Source of the DNA: Escherichia phage PECP20
Sequence record: OQ873415.1
DNA: 64,000 nt
Direction: 5' to 3' (one strand)
In this document: positions 59,046-64,000 of the stretch, one piece after another
Layout: each line of letters opens with the position of its first letter
How positions within the stretch are numbered: position 1 is the first letter of the stretch
The notes under the pieces: model-generated
Databases searched by the model: none
What the model was told of the DNA's origin: nothing
The model's input: the letters and a program-made list of their open reading frames with translations, nothing else
Translations under genes and position numbers: made by a program

Positions 59046-59286
59046 ATCGGTCCCATGATTTGGCCATCAATTCGGACATAAATTCTTCAATGCGCGTTTC
59101 TTTAGATGGACTTTCACTATTAGAGACCGCAAGTTTGTAATCTGCAATAGGACAGAACATATCAAGGTCCATATTAAGATCGTCTTTGATTTTTTCTTCT
59201 GACACATCTTTATCATACGTGTACAGATAACTATCGCATGATTCTGATTTAATGTAAATTGCTATACTCATCTCAAATTCCTGCAT
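59035..59286 (-). CDS. hypothetical acidic protein (83 aa)
   Basis: ORF. Confidence 0.5.
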   Translation of the reverse strand: MQEFEMSIAIYIKSESCDSYLYTYDKDVSEEKIKDDLNMDLDMFCPIADYKLAVSNSESPSKETRIEEFMSELMAKSWDRYDE

Positions 59287-59759
59287 TCGGTAATAAAACG
59301 TTCAACTTCGTTATTCTTGGCCTTTATCTTGTCTTTACGTTCCTGTAAACTACTTTTAACAAGATTAATAATGATGGCGGCGGTACCGCCGCCAATGATG
59401 CCACCAACAACACTTACGATACTAGATGCTAATAAGATAGCAATAATATCAACAAAACCGAAAGAACTCACCTTAGTACTGAAAAACCATACCGACGGTA
59501 CAAATATAATCCATCCTGTTATCCATTGGCACTTATTGAAAAACTTTTCAAGCTCAGCTTGAGTTGTTCGTATTACTTCATCGATAGGTTGATATCCATT
59601 AATGTATCTGTTCACGATAATACCTGCTGGCTGGTCGATTTTAAATTCTTGGCAAATACGTTTCACTAAGTAGGATGGACATCCTGTCCAATCCACTGAA
59701 TAGTACGAAATACCTTCGTTGCCATCGTCTATATTAGACCAATATGTTTTGTTAATCAT
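59268..59759 (-). CDS. membrane protein with C-terminal ERFITECR motif (163 aa)
   Basis: Central TM helices; C-terminal motif shared with 60447..60752 and 63113..63472. Confidence 0.6.
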   Translation of the reverse strand: MINKTYWSNIDDGNEGISYYSVDWTGCPSYLVKRICQEFKIDQPAGIIVNRYINGYQPIDEVIRTTQAELEKFFNKCQWITGWIIFVPSVWFFSTKVSSFGFVDIIAILLASSIVSVVGGIIGGGTAAIIINLVKSSLQERKDKIKAKNNEVERFITECRNLR

Positions 59760-60445
59760 TACCAGCCTTCCATAGGGAATTCCAGATAAACTTGAGCATT
59801 GACACGAATTTCATTGGTAATCTTTTTAACTCGGTCTGTATTACGAGATACACGTCCGAACCAACGCCATCCATTACTAATTGCACGAGAACCAGTGTGC
59901 CATGTTTGCCAATCAAACTGAAGAAGAGTACGGTCCGGAGCTTCCCATTTCTCTAGTTCACCTTTTTCAATTTTTTCGAGGACTTCTTTGTGCCACTGGC
60001 GATAGATAAGTTCGCCATCAGGAATCTGACTGAACTCTGCAGTTCCTGTTGCAAAATGAGTAGGACACACATCAGCGTTAACAAGACCAAGAATATGTTC
60101 AGACAAATAGCGAGGATTGTCATAGTCAGGTTGTCCTGCAGTAATAAAATGTTGACCAACCGGAATATCCGGGCGTGGTACGTCATCATGGTGATAACCA
60201 GGAATAGCAGGATACCAACCAGGCATCAGCATATGGACTCGTGAATCAAATACTACATCTGAGTCTTTCCAATCGTCAGGGAGATTTTGGATAAAGCTAC
60301 GAGTAATTGGACCGCCGTTATCAAAAGCAAAATTCAAATCGCAATTAAAGAACATAGGCTCGTTTTTAATCTGGTCATTTTTAATCGCATGAGCAAAACC
60401 ACCTACTGCACGAGCTTGACTATTAAACACTTTAGAACTATTCAT
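59759..60445 (-). CDS. hypothetical protein (228 aa)
   Basis: ORF; His/Asp/Trp-rich; no family assigned. Confidence 0.65.
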   Translation of the reverse strand: MNSSKVFNSQARAVGGFAHAIKNDQIKNEPMFFNCDLNFAFDNGGPITRSFIQNLPDDWKDSDVVFDSRVHMLMPGWYPAIPGYHHDDVPRPDIPVGQHFITAGQPDYDNPRYLSEHILGLVNADVCPTHFATGTAEFSQIPDGELIYRQWHKEVLEKIEKGELEKWEAPDRTLLQFDWQTWHTGSRAISNGWRWFGRVSRNTDRVKKITNEIRVNAQVYLEFPMEGW

Positions 60446-60446
60446 A

Positions 60447-60752
60447 TTATTTTCCTCGACATTCTTTAATGAAATTTTCTAGATTGGTAGATTCAATAGC
60501 TTTTTTACGAGCTTCTGCGTGTTCTTCTTCAGACAATTTACATTTATAATTGACCCAGACGTTATGGTCGAAACTAGTCGTGGCATATAATAACAATGCT
60601 CCAACGAATAGCAAAAACGGCGATAAGAATACAAAACCAGGAACACCATCCATACTGTAAGCCTTTTGTAATACTGCAACAGAAAGAGCTGCGTAAAAAA
60701 GTGATACAAATATTGTTAAAAGACCAATTCGGTTGGTTTCGCCTAATTTCAT
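60447..60752 (-). CDS. membrane protein with C-terminal ENFIKECR motif (101 aa)
   Basis: Two TM helices; C-terminus LENFIKECRGK. Confidence 0.6.
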   Translation of the reverse strand: MKLGETNRIGLLTIFVSLFYAALSVAVLQKAYSMDGVPGFVFLSPFLLFVGALLLYATTSFDHNVWVNYKCKLSEEEHAEARKKAIESTNLENFIKECRGK

Positions 60753-60810: not shown

Positions 60811-61029
60811 TTATTTTGACATTTCTTCGATGTCACGACGATACCCATCACGAACTTCACGAAGAGCTTCAAGGCCACACATAGGCTCGATACCAGTAAT
60901 GTGAACTTGATTAATCTGATACTCTACATCTTCTAACTGAGCGAAAACATAACGACGTTCTGCTGCACAACCAGGTTTAGCTTTACCGAAACGTTTATTC
61001 AAAGTAGTCATTTTTATATCTCCATTCAC
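60811..61029 (-). CDS. hypothetical protein (72 aa)
   Basis: ORF. Confidence 0.5.
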   Translation of the reverse strand: MNGDIKMTTLNKRFGKAKPGCAAERRYVFAQLEDVEYQINQVHITGIEPMCGLEALREVRDGYRRDIEEMSK

Positions 61030-61091
61030 TCATTTGTTTTGATAGGTCTATAGTATCAACAACTACAGACCTTGTAAACTGTTTTGTGAAA

Positions 61092-62048
61092 TTATTTGAA
61101 AGGTTTTACCATATGAAAGTTTTGTTTGAAACGCTTGACGTAATCGTCGTGTCCTAAGCTTTGGTACATACTTACTACTTTGTTATAATTTTCCCAAGCG
61201 AACTCACGGAACCATCCTGATGTGATTGATGTACAGACCTTTTCAAGGGCCATCATAAAACTATCACGTGGATGGATTTCAAAGTTATTAGGAATCTGAG
61301 AACGTTCTAACGCTAGTACACATGATTCTTCGTATACGCCGGCCAATTTGACCATTTCTGGTAATGATTCGAACTTCTCGCGTGAGGTCATGACTTCAGA
61401 ACCATCTTTCATATAAAATGTATACGCTGGACGGTCTGTTAGTGCAATGGCTTCATGAATAGTATCATGGTCATATGTATAGATGTCATCTTTAAAGAAC
61501 GCACTTTTAGAAGTGTCAAGAACTGGGTGAGCATAATTCAAGGTTTCTTTCTGGCGTTTCAGCATAATTTCAGTAAGTTCATCGTTCAGTGTAACACCTT
61601 TACCACGAAGATACTGAATATGGTTCATAGTCTTTAAAAAGAATGGATTATTTTTCTTGAAACGATGAGACATCTTAATTGCAAGACATATCTCAGGAGT
61701 TGCCCAGTAAAACCCGTTCAAACGGTCTTTAGTCAAATTTTTCTTGGCGTATTTTAAAAGGTCATAAGAAGACGTGAAATCTTCAGGAGTGAGTTCACCG
61801 ACTAGTTCGCGAACGTTAGTGATAGCCGGAACGATGTATGCTTCAAAATGAGTTTCGCGTCCATTATGGAAGCATTTGAAAACTTGGACATCAGGGTTAT
61901 CTTGGTGAACATATACACCCATCATTTGATTTTTGAATGCATTCCAAGAACCTTGGTCCGCAATAAAGTCCCAATCACTATTTTTAATAGCGCTAGAATC
62001 AATAAGACCGTGATAGTGAAGTGCACGAGAACCAATAACTAACATCAT
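61092..62048 (-). CDS. hypothetical protein, possible nucleotidyltransferase-like N-terminus (318 aa)
   Basis: N-terminal VIGSRALHYHG...SDWDF loosely resembles GS...D-x-D nucleotidyltransferase signature; weak. Confidence 0.65.
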   Translation of the reverse strand: MMLVIGSRALHYHGLIDSSAIKNSDWDFIADQGSWNAFKNQMMGVYVHQDNPDVQVFKCFHNGRETHFEAYIVPAITNVRELVGELTPEDFTSSYDLLKYAKKNLTKDRLNGFYWATPEICLAIKMSHRFKKNNPFFLKTMNHIQYLRGKGVTLNDELTEIMLKRQKETLNYAHPVLDTSKSAFFKDDIYTYDHDTIHEAIALTDRPAYTFYMKDGSEVMTSREKFESLPEMVKLAGVYEESCVLALERSQIPNNFEIHPRDSFMMALEKVCTSITSGWFREFAWENYNKVVSMYQSLGHDDYVKRFKQNFHMVKPFK

Positions 62049-62076
62049 AATATTTTCCTCGGATTAATTCATTAAC

Positions 62077-62328
62077 TTAAATTTCACGACATGCGATATT
62101 ATATTCATCCCAGAGGTCATCATGTGAAGCCTCTACCAATGGAACGATTGTACCGTTTATGTCTTCATTATAAGGGCAAATTGTACAGTGCGCATCTTCG
62201 AATCGGATGCCTTTGTGTTCAGATTTTTTATAACGCATATCGAATATCTTTGCAAACTTTTCACGAGTAATGGTTTTACCAACCACTTTGGTTCCGATAC
62301 TTTCGTAATAAATCATTGTGGACTCCAT
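62077..62328 (-). CDS. Cys/His-containing small protein (83 aa)
   Basis: ORF preceded by promoter cassette at 62334-62374. Confidence 0.55.
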   Translation of the reverse strand: MESTMIYYESIGTKVVGKTITREKFAKIFDMRYKKSEHKGIRFEDAHCTICPYNEDINGTIVPLVEASHDDLWDEYNIACREI

Positions 62329-62378
62329 TTGTTTTGATAGGACTACTATAACATAGCCCTATCTTGTTGTAAACTGTT

Positions 62379-62576
62379 TTAGCAAGAATAACTAGATGAT
62401 ACCCAGCCTTGAACAGTGATACTATTGTGGGATAATGAGATCGCGTCCTGGAGATTCAGACCTGCGTTATCTTCAATCCATAATGTAACTTCTTCGCGTT
62501 CTTCTGCTGCAATTTGGAACAGGTTTTCCAGAGCAGCTACTGCCGTACGTACAGCACAATCTAATTCACGAGACAT
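62379..62576 (-). CDS. small protein ending W-x-SSS-x-x-C (65 aa)
   Basis: C-terminus GWVSSSYSC; tandem paralog family. Confidence 0.5.
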   Translation of the reverse strand: MSRELDCAVRTAVAALENLFQIAAEEREEVTLWIEDNAGLNLQDAISLSHNSITVQGWVSSSYSC

Positions 62577-62585
62577 ATTGTTTCC

Positions 62586-62813
62586 TTAGCAAGACATAGA
62601 GGAAGAGAACCAGAAACCTTTGCCTTCCGGAATTCCATAATCGTTACGGATCCAGCCATATTCATCATATTCTGAACTGGTCGCCGGAATATATCGGTTA
62701 AGTCCTTCAGCATACACATGAAAATACTCGCCGGTTTTATCAGCTAATTGTTGGCCTTCACAGATTAGTGCTCGAATTTGGTCTTCAATTTCTTTAACGG
62801 TTTTAGTGGTCAT
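62586..62813 (-). CDS. small protein ending W-x-SSS-x-x-C (75 aa)
   Basis: C-terminus FWFSSSMSC. Confidence 0.5.
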   Translation of the reverse strand: MTTKTVKEIEDQIRALICEGQQLADKTGEYFHVYAEGLNRYIPATSSEYDEYGWIRNDYGIPEGKGFWFSSSMSC

Positions 62814-62822
62814 TTTATTTCC

Positions 62823-63116
62823 TTAACATATTTGAGAAGAGGAGATCCATACACCGGAAGTAACGATACCATTTTCGTCAACTTCACCGCCATAGTTTTC
62901 AATTTCATCGCGCATCCAGCGACTACATTCATAACCAACAGGATAGTAAGTACGACCTGAACCATATTCACCTACATCAAATGAAACACCATACTTATCT
63001 GCGATAATAGTAGCTTCATTCTCGATATGGTCTTGAGCACGAAGAAGTTTGCTGATTGCTTCTTCTGCAGATTTAGCGTCATTGTATTCAGGGATTACGA
63101 TTTCAATTTTACTCAT
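62823..63116 (-). CDS. small protein ending W-x-SSS-x-x-C (97 aa)
   Basis: C-terminus VWISSSQIC. Confidence 0.5.
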   Translation of the reverse strand: MSKIEIVIPEYNDAKSAEEAISKLLRAQDHIENEATIIADKYGVSFDVGEYGSGRTYYPVGYECSRWMRDEIENYGGEVDENGIVTSGVWISSSQIC

Positions 63117-63472
63117 TTTCTACATTCCTTAATAAAGTTTTCGATTGTTTCATTTTCACGTTTAGCTAGGAGTTCATTATAACTAATCATTTGAGAAGCG
63201 TAAACCTTTTTATTTTTCTTGTTGTGGTTTATAAAATCGTAGTAAAAATAGACTACAGTACAAAATGATGCGATGGATGCAAAGGCTTGGGTATACCGTA
63301 AGTCCTGCCATTGGTCTGTGAATCCACCAGTGTTCCCTATAAATCCTAACACAACGCCGTCAATAAGAAATCCAACTAATCCAAAGGCAAATCCCATGCC
63401 AATACTCATAATAAAAATTAGAATGTTCTCACCAAGAGAAGGCCATACGGTTAAGAGTTGAGGCTTTTGCAT
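63113..63472 (-). CDS. membrane protein with C-terminal ENFIKECR motif (119 aa)
   Basis: TM helices; C-terminus IENFIKECRK. Confidence 0.6.
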   Translation of the reverse strand: MQKPQLLTVWPSLGENILIFIMSIGMGFAFGLVGFLIDGVVLGFIGNTGGFTDQWQDLRYTQAFASIASFCTVVYFYYDFINHNKKNKKVYASQMISYNELLAKRENETIENFIKECRK

Positions 63473-63825
63473 CTTATTTCCTTAACGAATTCCATAGCTT
63501 CTTCATATTCATACTTTTTAACAGCTTCATCATACTGAGCTTGGGCTTTTGCGCACTGAACTTTCCATTCTCTTAATCGGGCTCTGTGATGACGGCCTTG
63601 GTGCCAATATCCTACCCAATTAATAGGCATTAATAAAAACGGTACAATAAGTGGTGCGACGAACATTAATGAAAATGCTGCATCAGACGATATAACTTCA
63701 CTAGAATCTAAAACAGCTCCTATAATCATAAAGATTAAAAATGCTAAAGCTAAAATAGGACCAAATAATACTTCATACGGGATTAATTTACGTTTGTATT
63801 CGTAGGCCCAGGGCTTACTTGGCAT
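63451..63825 (-). CDS. membrane protein (124 aa)
   Basis: ATG at 63825 (MPSKPWAY) chosen; overlaps the stop of the partial gene upstream; track start 63876. Confidence 0.5.
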   Translation of the reverse strand: MPSKPWAYEYKRKLIPYEVLFGPILALAFLIFMIIGAVLDSSEVISSDAAFSLMFVAPLIVPFLLMPINWVGYWHQGRHHRARLREWKVQCAKAQAQYDEAVKKYEYEEAMEFVKEIRCKSLNS

Positions 63826-64000
63826 GTATAGGGTTGGCTTTGACATATTCTCTACATTCCATAATAAATTGCTCAAGGATTAAATTGTTAGTGAAATTAG
63901 GACTAACAACCATAGTTTCATAAAGCGCATCAATAGCACTTAAAGCATCAACTCTTTTAAGCAAAGGCTTGCCTTCATACATAGTTTCAGAATCGATGAT
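63815..64000 (-). CDS. hypothetical protein, partial (C-terminal 61 codons; N-terminus beyond window end), FIMECR motif
   Basis: Open frame from window edge to TAA at 63817-63815; C-terminus ...EQFIMECREYVKANPIHAK resembles the ENFIKECR family. Confidence 0.4.
   Translation of the reverse strand: MIDSETMYEGKPLLKRVDALSAIDALYETMVVSPNFTNNLILEQFIMECREYVKANPIHAK

What the first reader, a model, noticed from the sequence alone, without database searches (positions are those of the whole stretch)
62379..63116. Three tandem small proteins ending in W-x-SSS-x-x-C
The C-termini are GWVSSSYSC, FWFSSSMSC and VWISSSQIC, each with Cys as the last residue, while the N-terminal regions are acidic and divergent. 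A conserved terminal Cys after a Ser triplet suggests a shared modification, metal site or interaction motif.
Basis: seen in the sequence. Interest (0 to 1): 0.5.

Follow-up and report, generated by a model that had tools for sequence, protein, structure and literature searches.

The report
Cysteine-tailed phage proteins with partner enzyme
Three adjacent small genes of a T4-like phage belong to a large, unstudied, phage-only protein family that always ends in the same Trp...Ser-Ser...Cys tail and almost always lies just upstream of one conserved enzyme-like gene, which points to an undescribed two-part phage system.

Summary
Three tightly packed minus-strand genes (97, 75 and 65 aa) each end in W-x-S-S-S-x-x-Cys-stop; 200 shuffles of the window gave no such ending. 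The window is a Mosigvirus (T4-like; 99.3% identical to phage LH01). The genes fill a slot between e.2 and e.3 that is empty in T4.

The motif is selected at the protein level, because the Ser and Cys codons differ between copies. It is the hallmark of a phage-restricted family (PHROG 899 and 4882). I collected 281 distinct members: 270 end exactly at Cys, the median length is 86 aa and the median pI 4.4. The generalised motif is G-x-W-x-x-S-S-x(0-3)-Cys-COOH. The family has no Pfam, NCBIfam, PADLOC or PDB relative, and a confident AF2 model (pLDDT 92) has no known fold neighbour.

The new result is a two-way gene association. Of 80 environmental phage loci anchored on the neighbouring 318-aa DUF7277/DUF7275 protein (window 61092-62048), 74 carry 1-5 motif genes, 187 of 190 of them upstream. 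Of 21 loci anchored on the small family, all 21 carry that protein just downstream. Its N-terminal domain keeps an invariant G-S...D-x-D nucleotidyltransferase-like signature.

The best reading is a two-part early module: one enzyme plus a variable array of small proteins carrying a common C-terminal tag. The biochemistry is unknown and I found no publication on it.

The parts
62823..63116 (-). Gene 1 of the array: 97-aa acidic protein (pI 4.3) ending in GVWISSSQIC. Member of the main family (PHROG 899). Its start overlaps the stop of the e.3-like gene (ATGA).
   Evidence: phrog_899, E 1.4e-22; AF2 pLDDT 92
62586..62813 (-). Gene 2 of the array: 75-aa acidic protein ending in GFWFSSSMSC. Full-length paralogue of gene 1. 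It is a Dhakavirus-type cassette, whereas most Mosigvirus carry a different 90-aa paralogue at this position.
   Evidence: phrog_899, E 5.8e-15; cassette difference
62379..62576 (-). Gene 3 of the array: 65-aa acidic protein ending in QGWVSSSYSC (PHROG 4882). A minimal version with an N-terminal helix, an I-E-D-x-A-G segment and the tail. Only the last 12 residues align to the main family at the profile level.
   Evidence: (phrog_4882, E 1.3e-36)
62826..62849 (-). Codons of the W-I-S-S-S-Q-I-C tail of gene 1
62589..62612 (-). Codons of the W-F-S-S-S-M-S-C tail of gene 2
62382..62405 (-). Codons of the W-V-S-S-S-Y-S-C tail of gene 3
61092..62048 (-). Constant partner gene: 318-aa DUF7277 + DUF7275 protein (PHROG 2141). 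The N-terminal domain has invariant G6-S7 ... D25-x-D27 (a Pol-beta nucleotidyltransferase-like signature). The C-terminal helical domain has invariant H128, H194-D195, H198, E240-E241 and C272.
62077..62328 (-). Intervening 83-aa gene (PHROG 3723; annotated as 79 aa in LH01). Present only in the T4-like lineages (32 of 80 loci), so it is probably not a core part of the module.
62336..62363 (-). Stable 11-bp hairpin directly after the array (dG -16 kcal/mol, z -3.2). Annotated as a terminator in phage SA79RD. It has no U-tract on this strand.
62345..62373 (-). T4-early-type promoter-like site (TTTACA-17-TATAGT, extended TG) that would drive the 83-aa and DUF7275 genes.
63113..63472 (-). e.3-like small membrane protein, translationally coupled to gene 1. 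This is lineage-specific context and is not found with the module in other phage groups.

Best explanation
The three ORFs are real, early-expressed paralogues of a large phage-only family of small acidic proteins. The defining feature of the family is an invariant C-terminus, G-x-W-x-x-S-S-x-x-Cys-COOH. They form the variable, multi-copy half (1-6 copies per phage) of a conserved two-part module. The constant, single-copy half is the DUF7277/DUF7275 protein encoded just downstream (window 61092-62048), which is probably a Pol-beta-type nucleotidyltransferase fused to a His/Asp-rich helical domain.

Proposed mechanism: the shared tail is the element through which every paralogue engages this one enzyme. 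Most likely it is the site of a covalent modification on the invariant Ser-Ser or the terminal Cys; alternatively it is a docking peg. The diversified bodies would give each paralogue a different partner or target in host takeover or counter-defence.

Shown: the genes, the motif, its protein-level selection, the breadth and phage restriction of the family, the absence of known homologues, and the two-way synteny with the enzyme gene.

Inferred: the physical or enzymatic coupling, the nucleotidyltransferase activity, the modification chemistry and the biological role.
For: The motif is real and not due to chance, and codon variation shows selection on the protein.

Family. 49 representatives were found among 1.84 billion proteins; all are small and none has a Pfam domain. 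W, S-S and the terminal C are invariant at about 24% mean column identity. Of 281 distinct members, 270 stop exactly at Cys.

Tandem arrays. Other phages carry 2-6 paralogues in tandem.

Synteny. Anchored on the enzyme, 74 of 80 IMG/VR loci have at least one motif ORF. There are 190 motif ORFs among 3457 same-strand ORFs and 0 among 3403 opposite-strand ORFs. 187 of the 190 are upstream, and the nearest one lies a median 374 nt away. Three of the six 'negative' loci carry near-variants of the motif. Anchored on the small family, 21 of 21 loci carry the enzyme downstream with hmmsearch E <= 1e-92.

No other conserved neighbour. The motif family is the only gene family besides the anchor shared by most loci.

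The association survives relocation. The pair sits next to nrdD in Aeromonas phage Aes508, in an unrelated region in Phapecoctavirus ESCO13, Otagovirus phiPsa381, Acinetobacter and Stenotrophomonas phages and a Salmonella jumbo phage.

Matching distributions. Genus counts in GenBank phages are nearly identical for the two genes (Escherichia 252 vs 259, Aeromonas 59 vs 59, Enterobacter 34 vs 36, Klebsiella 34 vs 35, Shigella 18 vs 18). T4 lacks the cluster at the orthologous e.2-e.3 junction, and neither search listed a Tequatrovirus record.

The enzyme. G-S and D-x-D are invariant in all 89 distinct sequences although the N-domain is otherwise very divergent. Several GenBank records call it a putative nucleotidyltransferase.
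Against: There is no direct evidence of binding or modification.

In the window the array and the enzyme gene are separated by a hairpin, a promoter-like site and an 83-aa gene, so they need not share a transcript.

The AF2 model places W90-S92 in the last strand and S93-I96 in a short helix with fairly good confidence (mean pLDDT 82 for the last block). This argues against a floppy tail; I could not inspect the coordinates.

The nucleotidyltransferase assignment rests on a short motif only. Pfam, the PDB profile search and hhalign against AadA, KNTase and GlnD gave nothing, and the single-sequence AF2 model of the enzyme failed (pLDDT 36).

The distant, shorter DUF7275 proteins of actinophages and Vibrio phage K460, and the 301-aa one of DSS3_VP1, have no motif gene within 4 kb. 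One T4-like locus (L038) also lacks one.
Confidence: 0.4

Rival explanations
1. Autonomous binding proteins. The small proteins act on their own, for example as oligomeric sponges for a small molecule or nucleotide signal, or as inhibitors of a host protein. The W / S-S / terminal Cys-carboxylate, together with the conserved Asp and Tyr, would form the ligand pocket. The DUF7275 enzyme would work in the same pathway (making, destroying or recycling the ligand) without touching the small proteins.
For: They are small, acidic and early-expressed, and occur as multiple diverging paralogues, as known sponge and inhibitor families do. The AF2 model shows a compact fold that includes the motif. A conserved D40, Y57, W90, S93, S94, C97 set could line a pocket. 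In ESCO13 an Acb2/Tad1-hairpin sponge gene lies two genes upstream, and NAD-salvage or ADP-ribose-related genes recur near the module.
Against: There is no sequence or fold similarity to Acb2, Tad1, Tad2 or any BFVD or PDB structure outside the family itself. A merely shared pathway would rarely give 21/21 and about 77/80 same-strand adjacency with a fixed gene order across unrelated phage groups. It does not explain why the chain must end exactly at Cys.
Confidence: 0.22
2. Regulators or antidotes of the enzyme. The small proteins would be inhibitory or activating subunits (antitoxin-like) of a potentially toxic nucleotidyltransferase, as in MNT-HEPN or AbiE-type pairs, and the tail would plug or complete the active site.
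For: Tight adjacency with a fixed order of small gene(s) then enzyme, often abutting or overlapping. The enzyme has an invariant Cys272 and a His/Asp cluster that a terminal Cys thiolate and carboxylate could complement.
Against: One enzyme would not need up to six diverging regulators. There is no similarity to MNT, HEPN or AbiE components in Pfam or PADLOC. Lytic phages have little use for an addiction module.
Confidence: 0.12
3. Thiol, sulfur or metal carrier. The terminal Cys would be a redox-active, persulfide-carrying or metal-binding residue on a C-terminal arm, as in DsrC/TusE-type carriers, or would form an inter-subunit metal or Fe-S site in an oligomer.
For: Cys is invariant and terminal. 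In Aeromonas phages the genes lie among nrdD, a thioredoxin-like gene and nrdH. A double-motif subfamily (…W-L-N-S-S-C…W-x-x-S-S-C*) supplies two such Cys.
Against: There is no DsrC/TusE, rhodanese or Fe-S family hit. Only one Cys is conserved, and 120 of 281 members have a single Cys. The redox neighbourhood is specific to the Aeromonas lineage. The 'sulfurtransferase' label seen in one GenBank record sits on the e.3 membrane protein and is unsupported.
Confidence: 0.1
4. RiPP-like precursors. The tail S-x-x-Cys-COOH would be processed into a lanthionine or aminovinyl-cysteine-type crosslink, as at the C-terminus of epidermin-type lantibiotics, with several precursor genes placed upstream of the modifying enzyme.
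For: Tandem precursor-like genes lie upstream of one enzyme. Ser sits three residues before a strictly C-terminal Cys, the same spacing as the AviCys-forming residues (my own knowledge of epidermin)..
Against: No LanB, LanC, LanM, LanD/HFCD, YcaO or radical-SAM domain occurs in the window neighbours or the conserved neighbourhood. The conserved part is the would-be core, whereas RiPP cores vary. The proteins are predicted to be folded domains. The spacing between S-S and C varies from 0 to 3 residues.
Confidence: 0.04
5. A DNA-level or chance artefact. The repeated ending would reflect a conserved ribosome-binding or stop context, recent gene conversion, or chance.
For: The stop codon overlaps the Shine-Dalgarno sequence of the next gene in two of the three copies.
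Against: No occurrences in 200 shuffles. Codons differ between copies. The third copy has no downstream gene abutting it yet keeps the motif. The motif is conserved across phage groups with unrelated nucleotide sequence.
Confidence: 0.01

Closest known systems
PHROG families 899 and 4882 (unknown function); RB69 ORF136c-139c, JS98 orf127-129
   Same: The three proteins match these profiles and are orthologues or paralogues of these catalogued hypothetical proteins.
   Different: Nothing is known about them. The C-terminal motif and the link to DUF7277/DUF7275 do not appear in any paper I could find.
GlnD-PII and MntA-HepT: a Pol-beta-fold nucleotidyltransferase that nucleotidylylates a small partner protein
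   Same: The logic is similar: an enzyme with a G-S...D-x-D signature is encoded next to small proteins that carry invariant hydroxyl residues. In GlnD the transferase is fused to a His/Asp (HD) domain.
   Different: There is no detectable sequence similarity (hhalign probability 0.1% to GlnD; no NTP_transf_2, GlnD or HEPN hit). The known acceptors are Tyr, not Ser or Cys. Those systems have one substrate gene, not an array.
RiPP clusters with several tandem precursor genes and one modifying enzyme; C-terminal Cys of AviCys lantibiotics
   Same: Tandem small genes lie upstream of one conserved enzyme, and the S-x-x-Cys-COOH ending is the same.
   Different: No RiPP enzyme domains are present. 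The conserved and variable parts are inverted relative to leader and core. The proteins are predicted to be folded.
DsrC/TusE sulfur carriers
   Same: A small protein with a conserved Cys at or next to the C-terminus that works with a partner enzyme.
   Different: No family hit and a different predicted fold; only one conserved Cys.
Phage signal sponges and small acidic inhibitors (Acb2, Tad1/2, Ocr-type mimics)
   Same: Small, acidic, early, phage-only and often in accessory-gene islands. An Acb2/Tad1-hairpin gene lies nearby in ESCO13.
   Different: No sequence or fold similarity. Those proteins have no obligate enzyme partner and no C-terminal signature.

Membership tests
W-x-x-S-S-x-x-Cys-COOH small-protein family (PHROG 899 / 4882) | Significant match to the family profile | tested here: met
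   phrog_899 E 1.4e-22 (97 aa) and 5.8e-15 (75 aa); phrog_4882 E 1.3e-36 (65 aa). Profile search of 1.84e9 proteins returned 49 small relatives.
W-x-x-S-S-x-x-Cys-COOH small-protein family (PHROG 899 / 4882) | Chain ends in G-x-W-x-x-S-S-x(0-3)-C with Cys as the last residue | tested here: met
   All three window proteins do. 270 of 281 collected members end at Cys.
W-x-x-S-S-x-x-Cys-COOH small-protein family (PHROG 899 / 4882) | A DUF7277/DUF7275 gene within about 2 kb downstream on the same strand | tested here: met
   In the window the array ends at 62379 and the enzyme gene is at 61092-62048. In general: 21/21 and 74/80 loci.
Pol-beta-type nucleotidyltransferases (for the partner protein) | hG[GS]-x(9-30)-D-x-[DE] signature plus a third carboxylate on a later strand | tested here: inconclusive
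   The G-S...D-x-D pattern is present in 89 of 89 sequences, and E69 is invariant in the six-sequence alignment. However, no NTase family, PDB or hhalign match was found and no usable structure model was obtained.
GlnD-type uridylyltransferase / HD-domain enzymes | Sequence homology to the NTase and HD domains | tested here: not met
   hhalign of the 89-sequence profile against E. coli GlnD residues 1-620 gave probability 0.1%. No HD (PF01966) hit at E <= 10.
Lanthipeptide / AviCys RiPP precursors | A dehydratase/cyclase (LanB/C/M) or HFCD decarboxylase (LanD) encoded in the cluster | tested here: not met
   Pfam and PHROG scans of the neighbours, and clustering of 80 neighbourhoods, show no such enzyme.
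DsrC/TusE sulfur carriers | DsrC-family fold and sequence with conserved C-terminal-arm cysteines | tested here: not met
Acb2 / Tad1 / Tad2 nucleotide sponges | Sequence or fold similarity to these families | tested here: not met
   No Pfam hit. In BFVD Foldseek the significant matches (E below about 0.01) are other uncharacterised phage proteins that share 22-66% sequence identity with the query, i.e. family members. PDB Foldseek gave no hit with E < 0.001.
Known anti-phage defence or anti-defence components (PADLOC) | Match to a PADLOC model | tested here: not met
   No significant hits for the three proteins or the partner.
Covalently modified or enzyme-docked C-terminal tag (proposed mechanism) | Mass shift of the small proteins, or a physical complex with the enzyme | not testable with these tools
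   This needs mass spectrometry, pull-down or multimer modelling. Only single-chain AF2 restricted to window sequences was available.

The most novel reading that the evidence does not exclude
A previously unrecognised phage protein-tagging system. A dedicated nucleotidyltransferase-like enzyme (DUF7277/DUF7275) covalently derivatises the invariant Ser-Ser or terminal Cys of a common eight-residue C-terminal tag, for example by nucleotidylylation or protein-primed nucleotide addition. The tag is carried by an exchangeable array of small effector proteins, which would be armed or regulated in this way for host takeover or counter-defence.
Probability: 0.2. Interest if true: 0.85.

Novelty: categorically new. 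Interest (0 to 1): 0.62.

Why it matters
The module is widespread in large virulent phages of Enterobacteria, Aeromonas, Acinetobacter, Pseudomonas and Stenotrophomonas, including phages considered for therapy. Even so, neither half has a described function, fold relative or publication that I could find.

A strictly C-terminal Cys preceded by an invariant Trp and Ser-Ser, kept across hundreds of diverging paralogues and tied to one enzyme, is a precise and cheap experimental handle. Tail point mutants, mass spectrometry with and without the enzyme, and pull-downs would all be informative.

If the tail is an enzyme-recognised tag, this would be a new way for phages to arm or regulate a changeable set of small effectors. 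It would also assign a role to two Pfam DUFs and two PHROG families. If the proteins turn out to be inhibitors or sponges, the arrays are a ready catalogue of variants.

Tried and rejected
- **Family and structure libraries for the three proteins.** Pfam, NCBIfam, PADLOC and a PDB sequence search gave only noise.
- **Word-indexed homologue searches.** They found few relatives. The full HMMER scan was needed.
- **Structure of the 318-aa partner.** No fold assignment was therefore possible.
- **Remote homology of the partner.** hhalign against AadA, KNTase and E. coli GlnD, a PDB profile search, Pfam at E <= 10, NCBIfam and PADLOC all gave nothing.
- **Possible relation to a second small family.** This family (GGEGxG...GWYxSYxG) lies next to distant DUF7275 proteins. 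hhalign probability was 0.1%, so no relation is shown.
- **Portable-tag idea.** I tested whether unrelated bodies share the tail. It is only weakly supported. The body of the 65-aa family gives no profile signal against the main family, but BLAST single linkage joins 255 of 281 bodies, so this is mostly one superfamily.
- **Bacterial homologues of the partner.** Only two MAG contigs were found, one of them 167 kb and carrying motif genes, probably phage.
- **'Sulfurtransferase' label.** The label in one GenBank record belongs to the e.3 membrane protein, not to the family.
- **Rfam.** No RNA family in 61000-64000.
- **Literature.** Searches by ORF names, accessions, PHROG and Pfam ids and keywords found nothing on the family.
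Full report
**1. What is in the sequence.**
The window carries three consecutive minus-strand ORFs: 62823-63116 (97 aa), 62586-62813 (75 aa) and 62379-62576 (65 aa). They end in GVWISSSQIC, GFWFSSSMSC and GWVSSSYSC, each followed directly by TAA. The pattern W.SSS..C-stop occurs only at these three places in all six frames, and never in 200 shuffles of the window.

The genes are packed like a T4-type operon. The first start overlaps the stop of the upstream gene (ATGA). The two intergenic gaps are both 9 nt, and each stop overlaps a TAAGGAAA Shine-Dalgarno sequence. The three Ser codons and the Cys codon differ between copies (TCC TCT TCT...TGT; TCT TCC TCT...TGC; TCA TCT AGT...TGC). The third copy has no abutting downstream gene. 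The repetition is therefore selected at the protein level and is not a ribosome-binding or gene-conversion artefact. The proteins are acidic (pI 4.2-4.6).

**2. Where it comes from.**
The region is 99.3% identical to Escherichia phage LH01 (Mosigvirus, Tevenvirinae). All annotated counterparts are 'hypothetical protein', corresponding to RB69 ORF136c-139c and JS98 orf127-129.

The genes lie in the e-to-tRNA early region, between the e.2-side genes and e.3. In T4 itself e.2 abuts e.3 and the whole insert is missing.

Most Mosigvirus phages carry a different, 90-aa paralogue in the middle position. This explains the 68% coverage of the nucleotide hits. The window's 75- and 97-aa genes are of the Dhakavirus type, so the array exchanges cassettes.

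A T4-early-like promoter (62373->62345) and an 11-bp hairpin (62336-62363; dG -16 kcal/mol, z -3.2) follow the array.

**3. The family.**
The 97- and 75-aa proteins are paralogues over their full length (E 3e-4). They share A-D-x-x-G-x-x-F, Y-x-P and W as well as the tail. Both match the C-terminal part of PHROG 899. The 65-aa protein is PHROG 4882.

A profile scan of 1.84 billion representative proteins found 49 relatives at E < 1e-3 (one of them a 2511-aa protein matched only over a 20-residue stretch). The 47 retrieved are 71-119 aa long. In an alignment of 48 sequences with about 24% mean column identity, the only invariant columns are the tail W, the middle S and the terminal C; the following S, together with A39, D40 and Y57, is at least 90% conserved.

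Collecting members from all fetched loci gave 281 distinct proteins:
- 207 have the canonical G-x-W-x-[S/A/P/N]-S-S-x-x-C ending.
- The spacer between S-S and C is 0 residues in 29 members, 3 residues in 25 (20 of them with the canonical W-x-x spacing), and 1 residue in 14.
- 270 end exactly at Cys.
- The median length is 86 aa and the median pI 4.4.
- 120 contain no other Cys.

A subfamily has two copies of the motif (…D-W-L-N-S-S-C…I-W-Y-P-S-S-C*).

The body of the 65-aa subfamily gives no profile-profile signal against the main family once the tail is removed. With the tail, only the last 12 residues align (probability 85%). Its layout (N-terminal helix, I-E-D-x-A-G, terminal hairpin) and BLAST single linkage (255 of 281 bodies in one component) suggest it is a trimmed homologue.

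**4. No known relative.**
Pfam, NCBIfam, PADLOC and the PDB sequence search gave nothing.

An AF2 model of the 97-aa protein from a 34-sequence alignment is confident (pLDDT 92, pTM 0.79). It has a long helix (14-42), a hairpin (46-48 and 55-58), a helix (66-74), a terminal hairpin (84-87 and 89-92) and a short C-terminal helix (93-96), so W90 to C97 are modelled as part of the fold.

**5. The partner gene.**
Downstream of the array, after one lineage-specific 83-aa gene, lies a 318-aa protein (61092-62048) made of Pfam DUF7277 and DUF7275 (E 9e-28 and 3e-79).

The same protein (46-73% identical to the window's) lies next to family members in phages where the pair sits at a completely different genome position. 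In Aeromonas phage Aes508 it is next to nrdD. The others are Phapecoctavirus ESCO13, Marfavirus F48, Otagovirus phiPsa381 and Klebsiella phage KP13-26. It also accompanies family members in Acinetobacter phages Acj9 and Lazarus, Stenotrophomonas phage Ps15 and Salmonella jumbo phage 7t3. These phages carry between one and six motif genes.

Genus counts of tblastn hits in GenBank phages are almost identical for the two genes.

I then tested the association in IMG/VR in both directions.
- **Anchored on the enzyme.** Of 80 loci (36-98% identity), 74 contain at least one motif ORF. There are 190 motif ORFs among 3457 same-strand ORFs against 0 among 3403 opposite-strand ORFs. 187 of the 190 lie upstream, and the nearest lies a median 374 nt from the enzyme gene. 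Three of the six negative loci have near-variants (W-x-S-S-x-x-x-C; …S-S-N-C-Y).
- **Anchored on the small family.** Using the YGMGGTYYP subtype, 21 of 21 loci have the enzyme (E <= 1e-92) just downstream on the same strand, often abutting.

All-against-all clustering of neighbourhood ORFs shows that the motif family is the only family, besides the anchor, shared by most loci. The next best is limited to T4-like phages (32 loci).

A scan of 185,579 bacterial and archaeal species genomes found only two MAG contigs, one of which (167 kb) carries two motif genes. The module is therefore essentially phage-restricted.

**6. What the partner looks like.**
Across 89 distinct sequences the N-terminal domain is highly divergent. 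It nevertheless keeps G6-S7 and D25-x-D27 in every sequence. An acidic residue (E69) on a later strand is invariant in the six-sequence alignment. This is the pattern of Pol-beta-type nucleotidyltransferases, and several GenBank records use that label.

The C-terminal DUF7275 domain is unusually conserved. Invariant residues include K125, H128, K139, R165, H194-D195, H198, E240-E241, E248-R249, K270, C272, S277-G278 and R281.

I could not confirm the fold. Pfam at E <= 10, a PDB profile search and hhalign against AadA, KNTase and E. coli GlnD all gave nothing. Only a single-sequence AF2 run was permitted, and it failed (pLDDT 36). The nucleotidyltransferase assignment is therefore an inference from the motif.

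**7. Most likely mechanism.**
The facts to be explained are these:
- The copy number of the small proteins varies (1-6) and their bodies diverge.
- The eight-residue C-terminus is invariant and must end at Cys.
- There is a single, highly conserved enzyme-like partner, in fixed gene order, across unrelated phage groups.

The simplest model is one enzyme serving many proteins that carry a common tag. The tail would be either the site that the enzyme modifies or the peg by which each paralogue docks to it. The invariant Ser-Ser hydroxyls are natural acceptors for a nucleotidyltransferase, and the terminal Cys is an alternative. The bodies would supply different specificities.

Several observations suggest a host-takeover or counter-defence role, but this is context only. 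The genes sit in an early, hyperplastic accessory region. They are absent from bacteria. The neighbours in other phages include an Acb2/Tad1-like sponge gene, Nampt/Prs NAD-salvage genes, an ADP-ribosyltransferase, CobB, and RNA ligase/Pnk genes.

I put about 0.7 on a genuine functional coupling of the two gene families. I put about 0.4 on the tail being the point of engagement, and about 0.2 on covalent derivatisation of the tag.

**8. Evidence against, and rivals.**
- Nothing shows binding or modification.
- In the window a hairpin, a promoter-like site and an extra gene separate the array from the enzyme gene.
- The AF2 model treats the tail as structured rather than flexible.
- Distant DUF7275 proteins (Streptomyces, Gordonia and Vibrio K460 phages, which are shorter, and the 301-aa one of DSS3_VP1) and one T4-like locus have no motif gene nearby.

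The rivals are:
- autonomous binders or sponges acting in the same pathway as the enzyme (0.22);
- regulators or antidotes of the enzyme (0.12);
- a thiol, persulfide or metal carrier (0.10);
- RiPP-like precursors with an AviCys-type S-x-x-C ending (0.04; no RiPP enzymes are present);
- a DNA-level artefact (0.01; refuted).

**9. Verdict.**

The family is catalogued in PHROGs, and the partner's domains are listed as Pfam DUFs. Both are uncharacterised and have no detectable sequence relative among characterised proteins. The small protein also has no fold relative; the partner's fold could not be assessed. The near-obligate pairing reported here does not appear in the literature I could search.

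I rate it as lying outside every known kind of system by the tests available, with the caveat that its biochemistry is unknown. Interest: 0.62.

Noticed in passing
window 59268-59759, 60447-60752, 63113-63472, 63451-63876, 63815-63982 (all minus strand): Five neighbouring small ORFs (at least three with a hydrophobic, membrane-like segment; e.2/e.3/e.4-like) share a near-C-terminal F-I-x-E-C-R motif (…NFIKECRGK, …NFIKECRK, …RFITECRNLR, …EFVKEIRCK…, …QFIMECREY…). In three of them these codons coincide with the Shine-Dalgarno sequence and start of the next gene, which overlaps or abuts. The motif may therefore be partly a DNA-level translational-coupling signal. The same motif recurs in locus L038.
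   Followed up: partly
window 62586-63116 compared with L002 6287-6874 (phage SA79RD): The array is mosaic. The window's 75-aa and 97-aa genes are of the Dhakavirus type. Most Mosigvirus phages have a 90-aa YGMGGTY-type paralogue in the middle position and a 101-aa first gene. This indicates cassette exchange inside the array.
   Followed up: partly
L014 4594-4893; L015 4600-4890 and 4887-5357; L016 4614-4922 and 4991-5356; L013 5217-5612: Distant DUF7275 proteins lack W..SS..C neighbours. These are the 248-263 aa proteins of a Streptomyces, a Gordonia and a Vibrio phage, and the 301-aa protein of DSS3_VP1. Each is instead followed by one or two copies of another small acidic family, with GGEGxG … G-W-Y-x-S-Y-x-G … E-E-V-x-P-x-x-K-x-I-T-V-Y. 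This family may be an analogue or a very distant relative, but hhalign shows no relation.
   Followed up: partly
L004 1977-2246 (Escherichia phage ESCO13): A gene with an Acb2/Tad1 hairpin domain (anti-CBASS/Thoeris sponge family; E 1.4e-19) lies two genes upstream of that phage's family member. This suggests an anti-defence island.
   Followed up: no
L010 5783-8437; L011 1-675; L013 8185-8837; L016 210-3163; L012 4853-5167; L009 6153-6315; L013 1265-2810; L017 1-1744: Genes for NAD salvage (Nampt, ribose-phosphate pyrophosphokinase), an ADP-ribosyltransferase, CobB, and RNA repair (RNA ligase, polynucleotide kinase, phosphoesterase) recur within about 4 kb of the module in several unrelated phages. 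This may simply reflect shared accessory-gene regions.
   Followed up: no
L003 2773-2988; L005 2428-2652; L006 1208-1432: A subfamily carries two copies of a shortened motif: an internal D-W-L-[SN]-S-S-C and a terminal W-x-x-S-[SN]-C*, about 25 residues apart. The motif can therefore also occur internally and in duplicate.
   Followed up: partly
L007 1471-1830 (phage vB_Eco_F31): The e.3-like membrane protein upstream of the array is labelled 'sulfurtransferase' in this GenBank record. No family search supports the label.
   Followed up: partly
window 59759-60445 and 60811-61029 (minus strand): A 228-aa protein (PHROG 1843) and a 72-aa protein (PHROG 6200) downstream of the partner gene have no Pfam, NCBIfam or PADLOC match. 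The 228-aa family is found in 20 of the 80 neighbourhoods.
   Followed up: no
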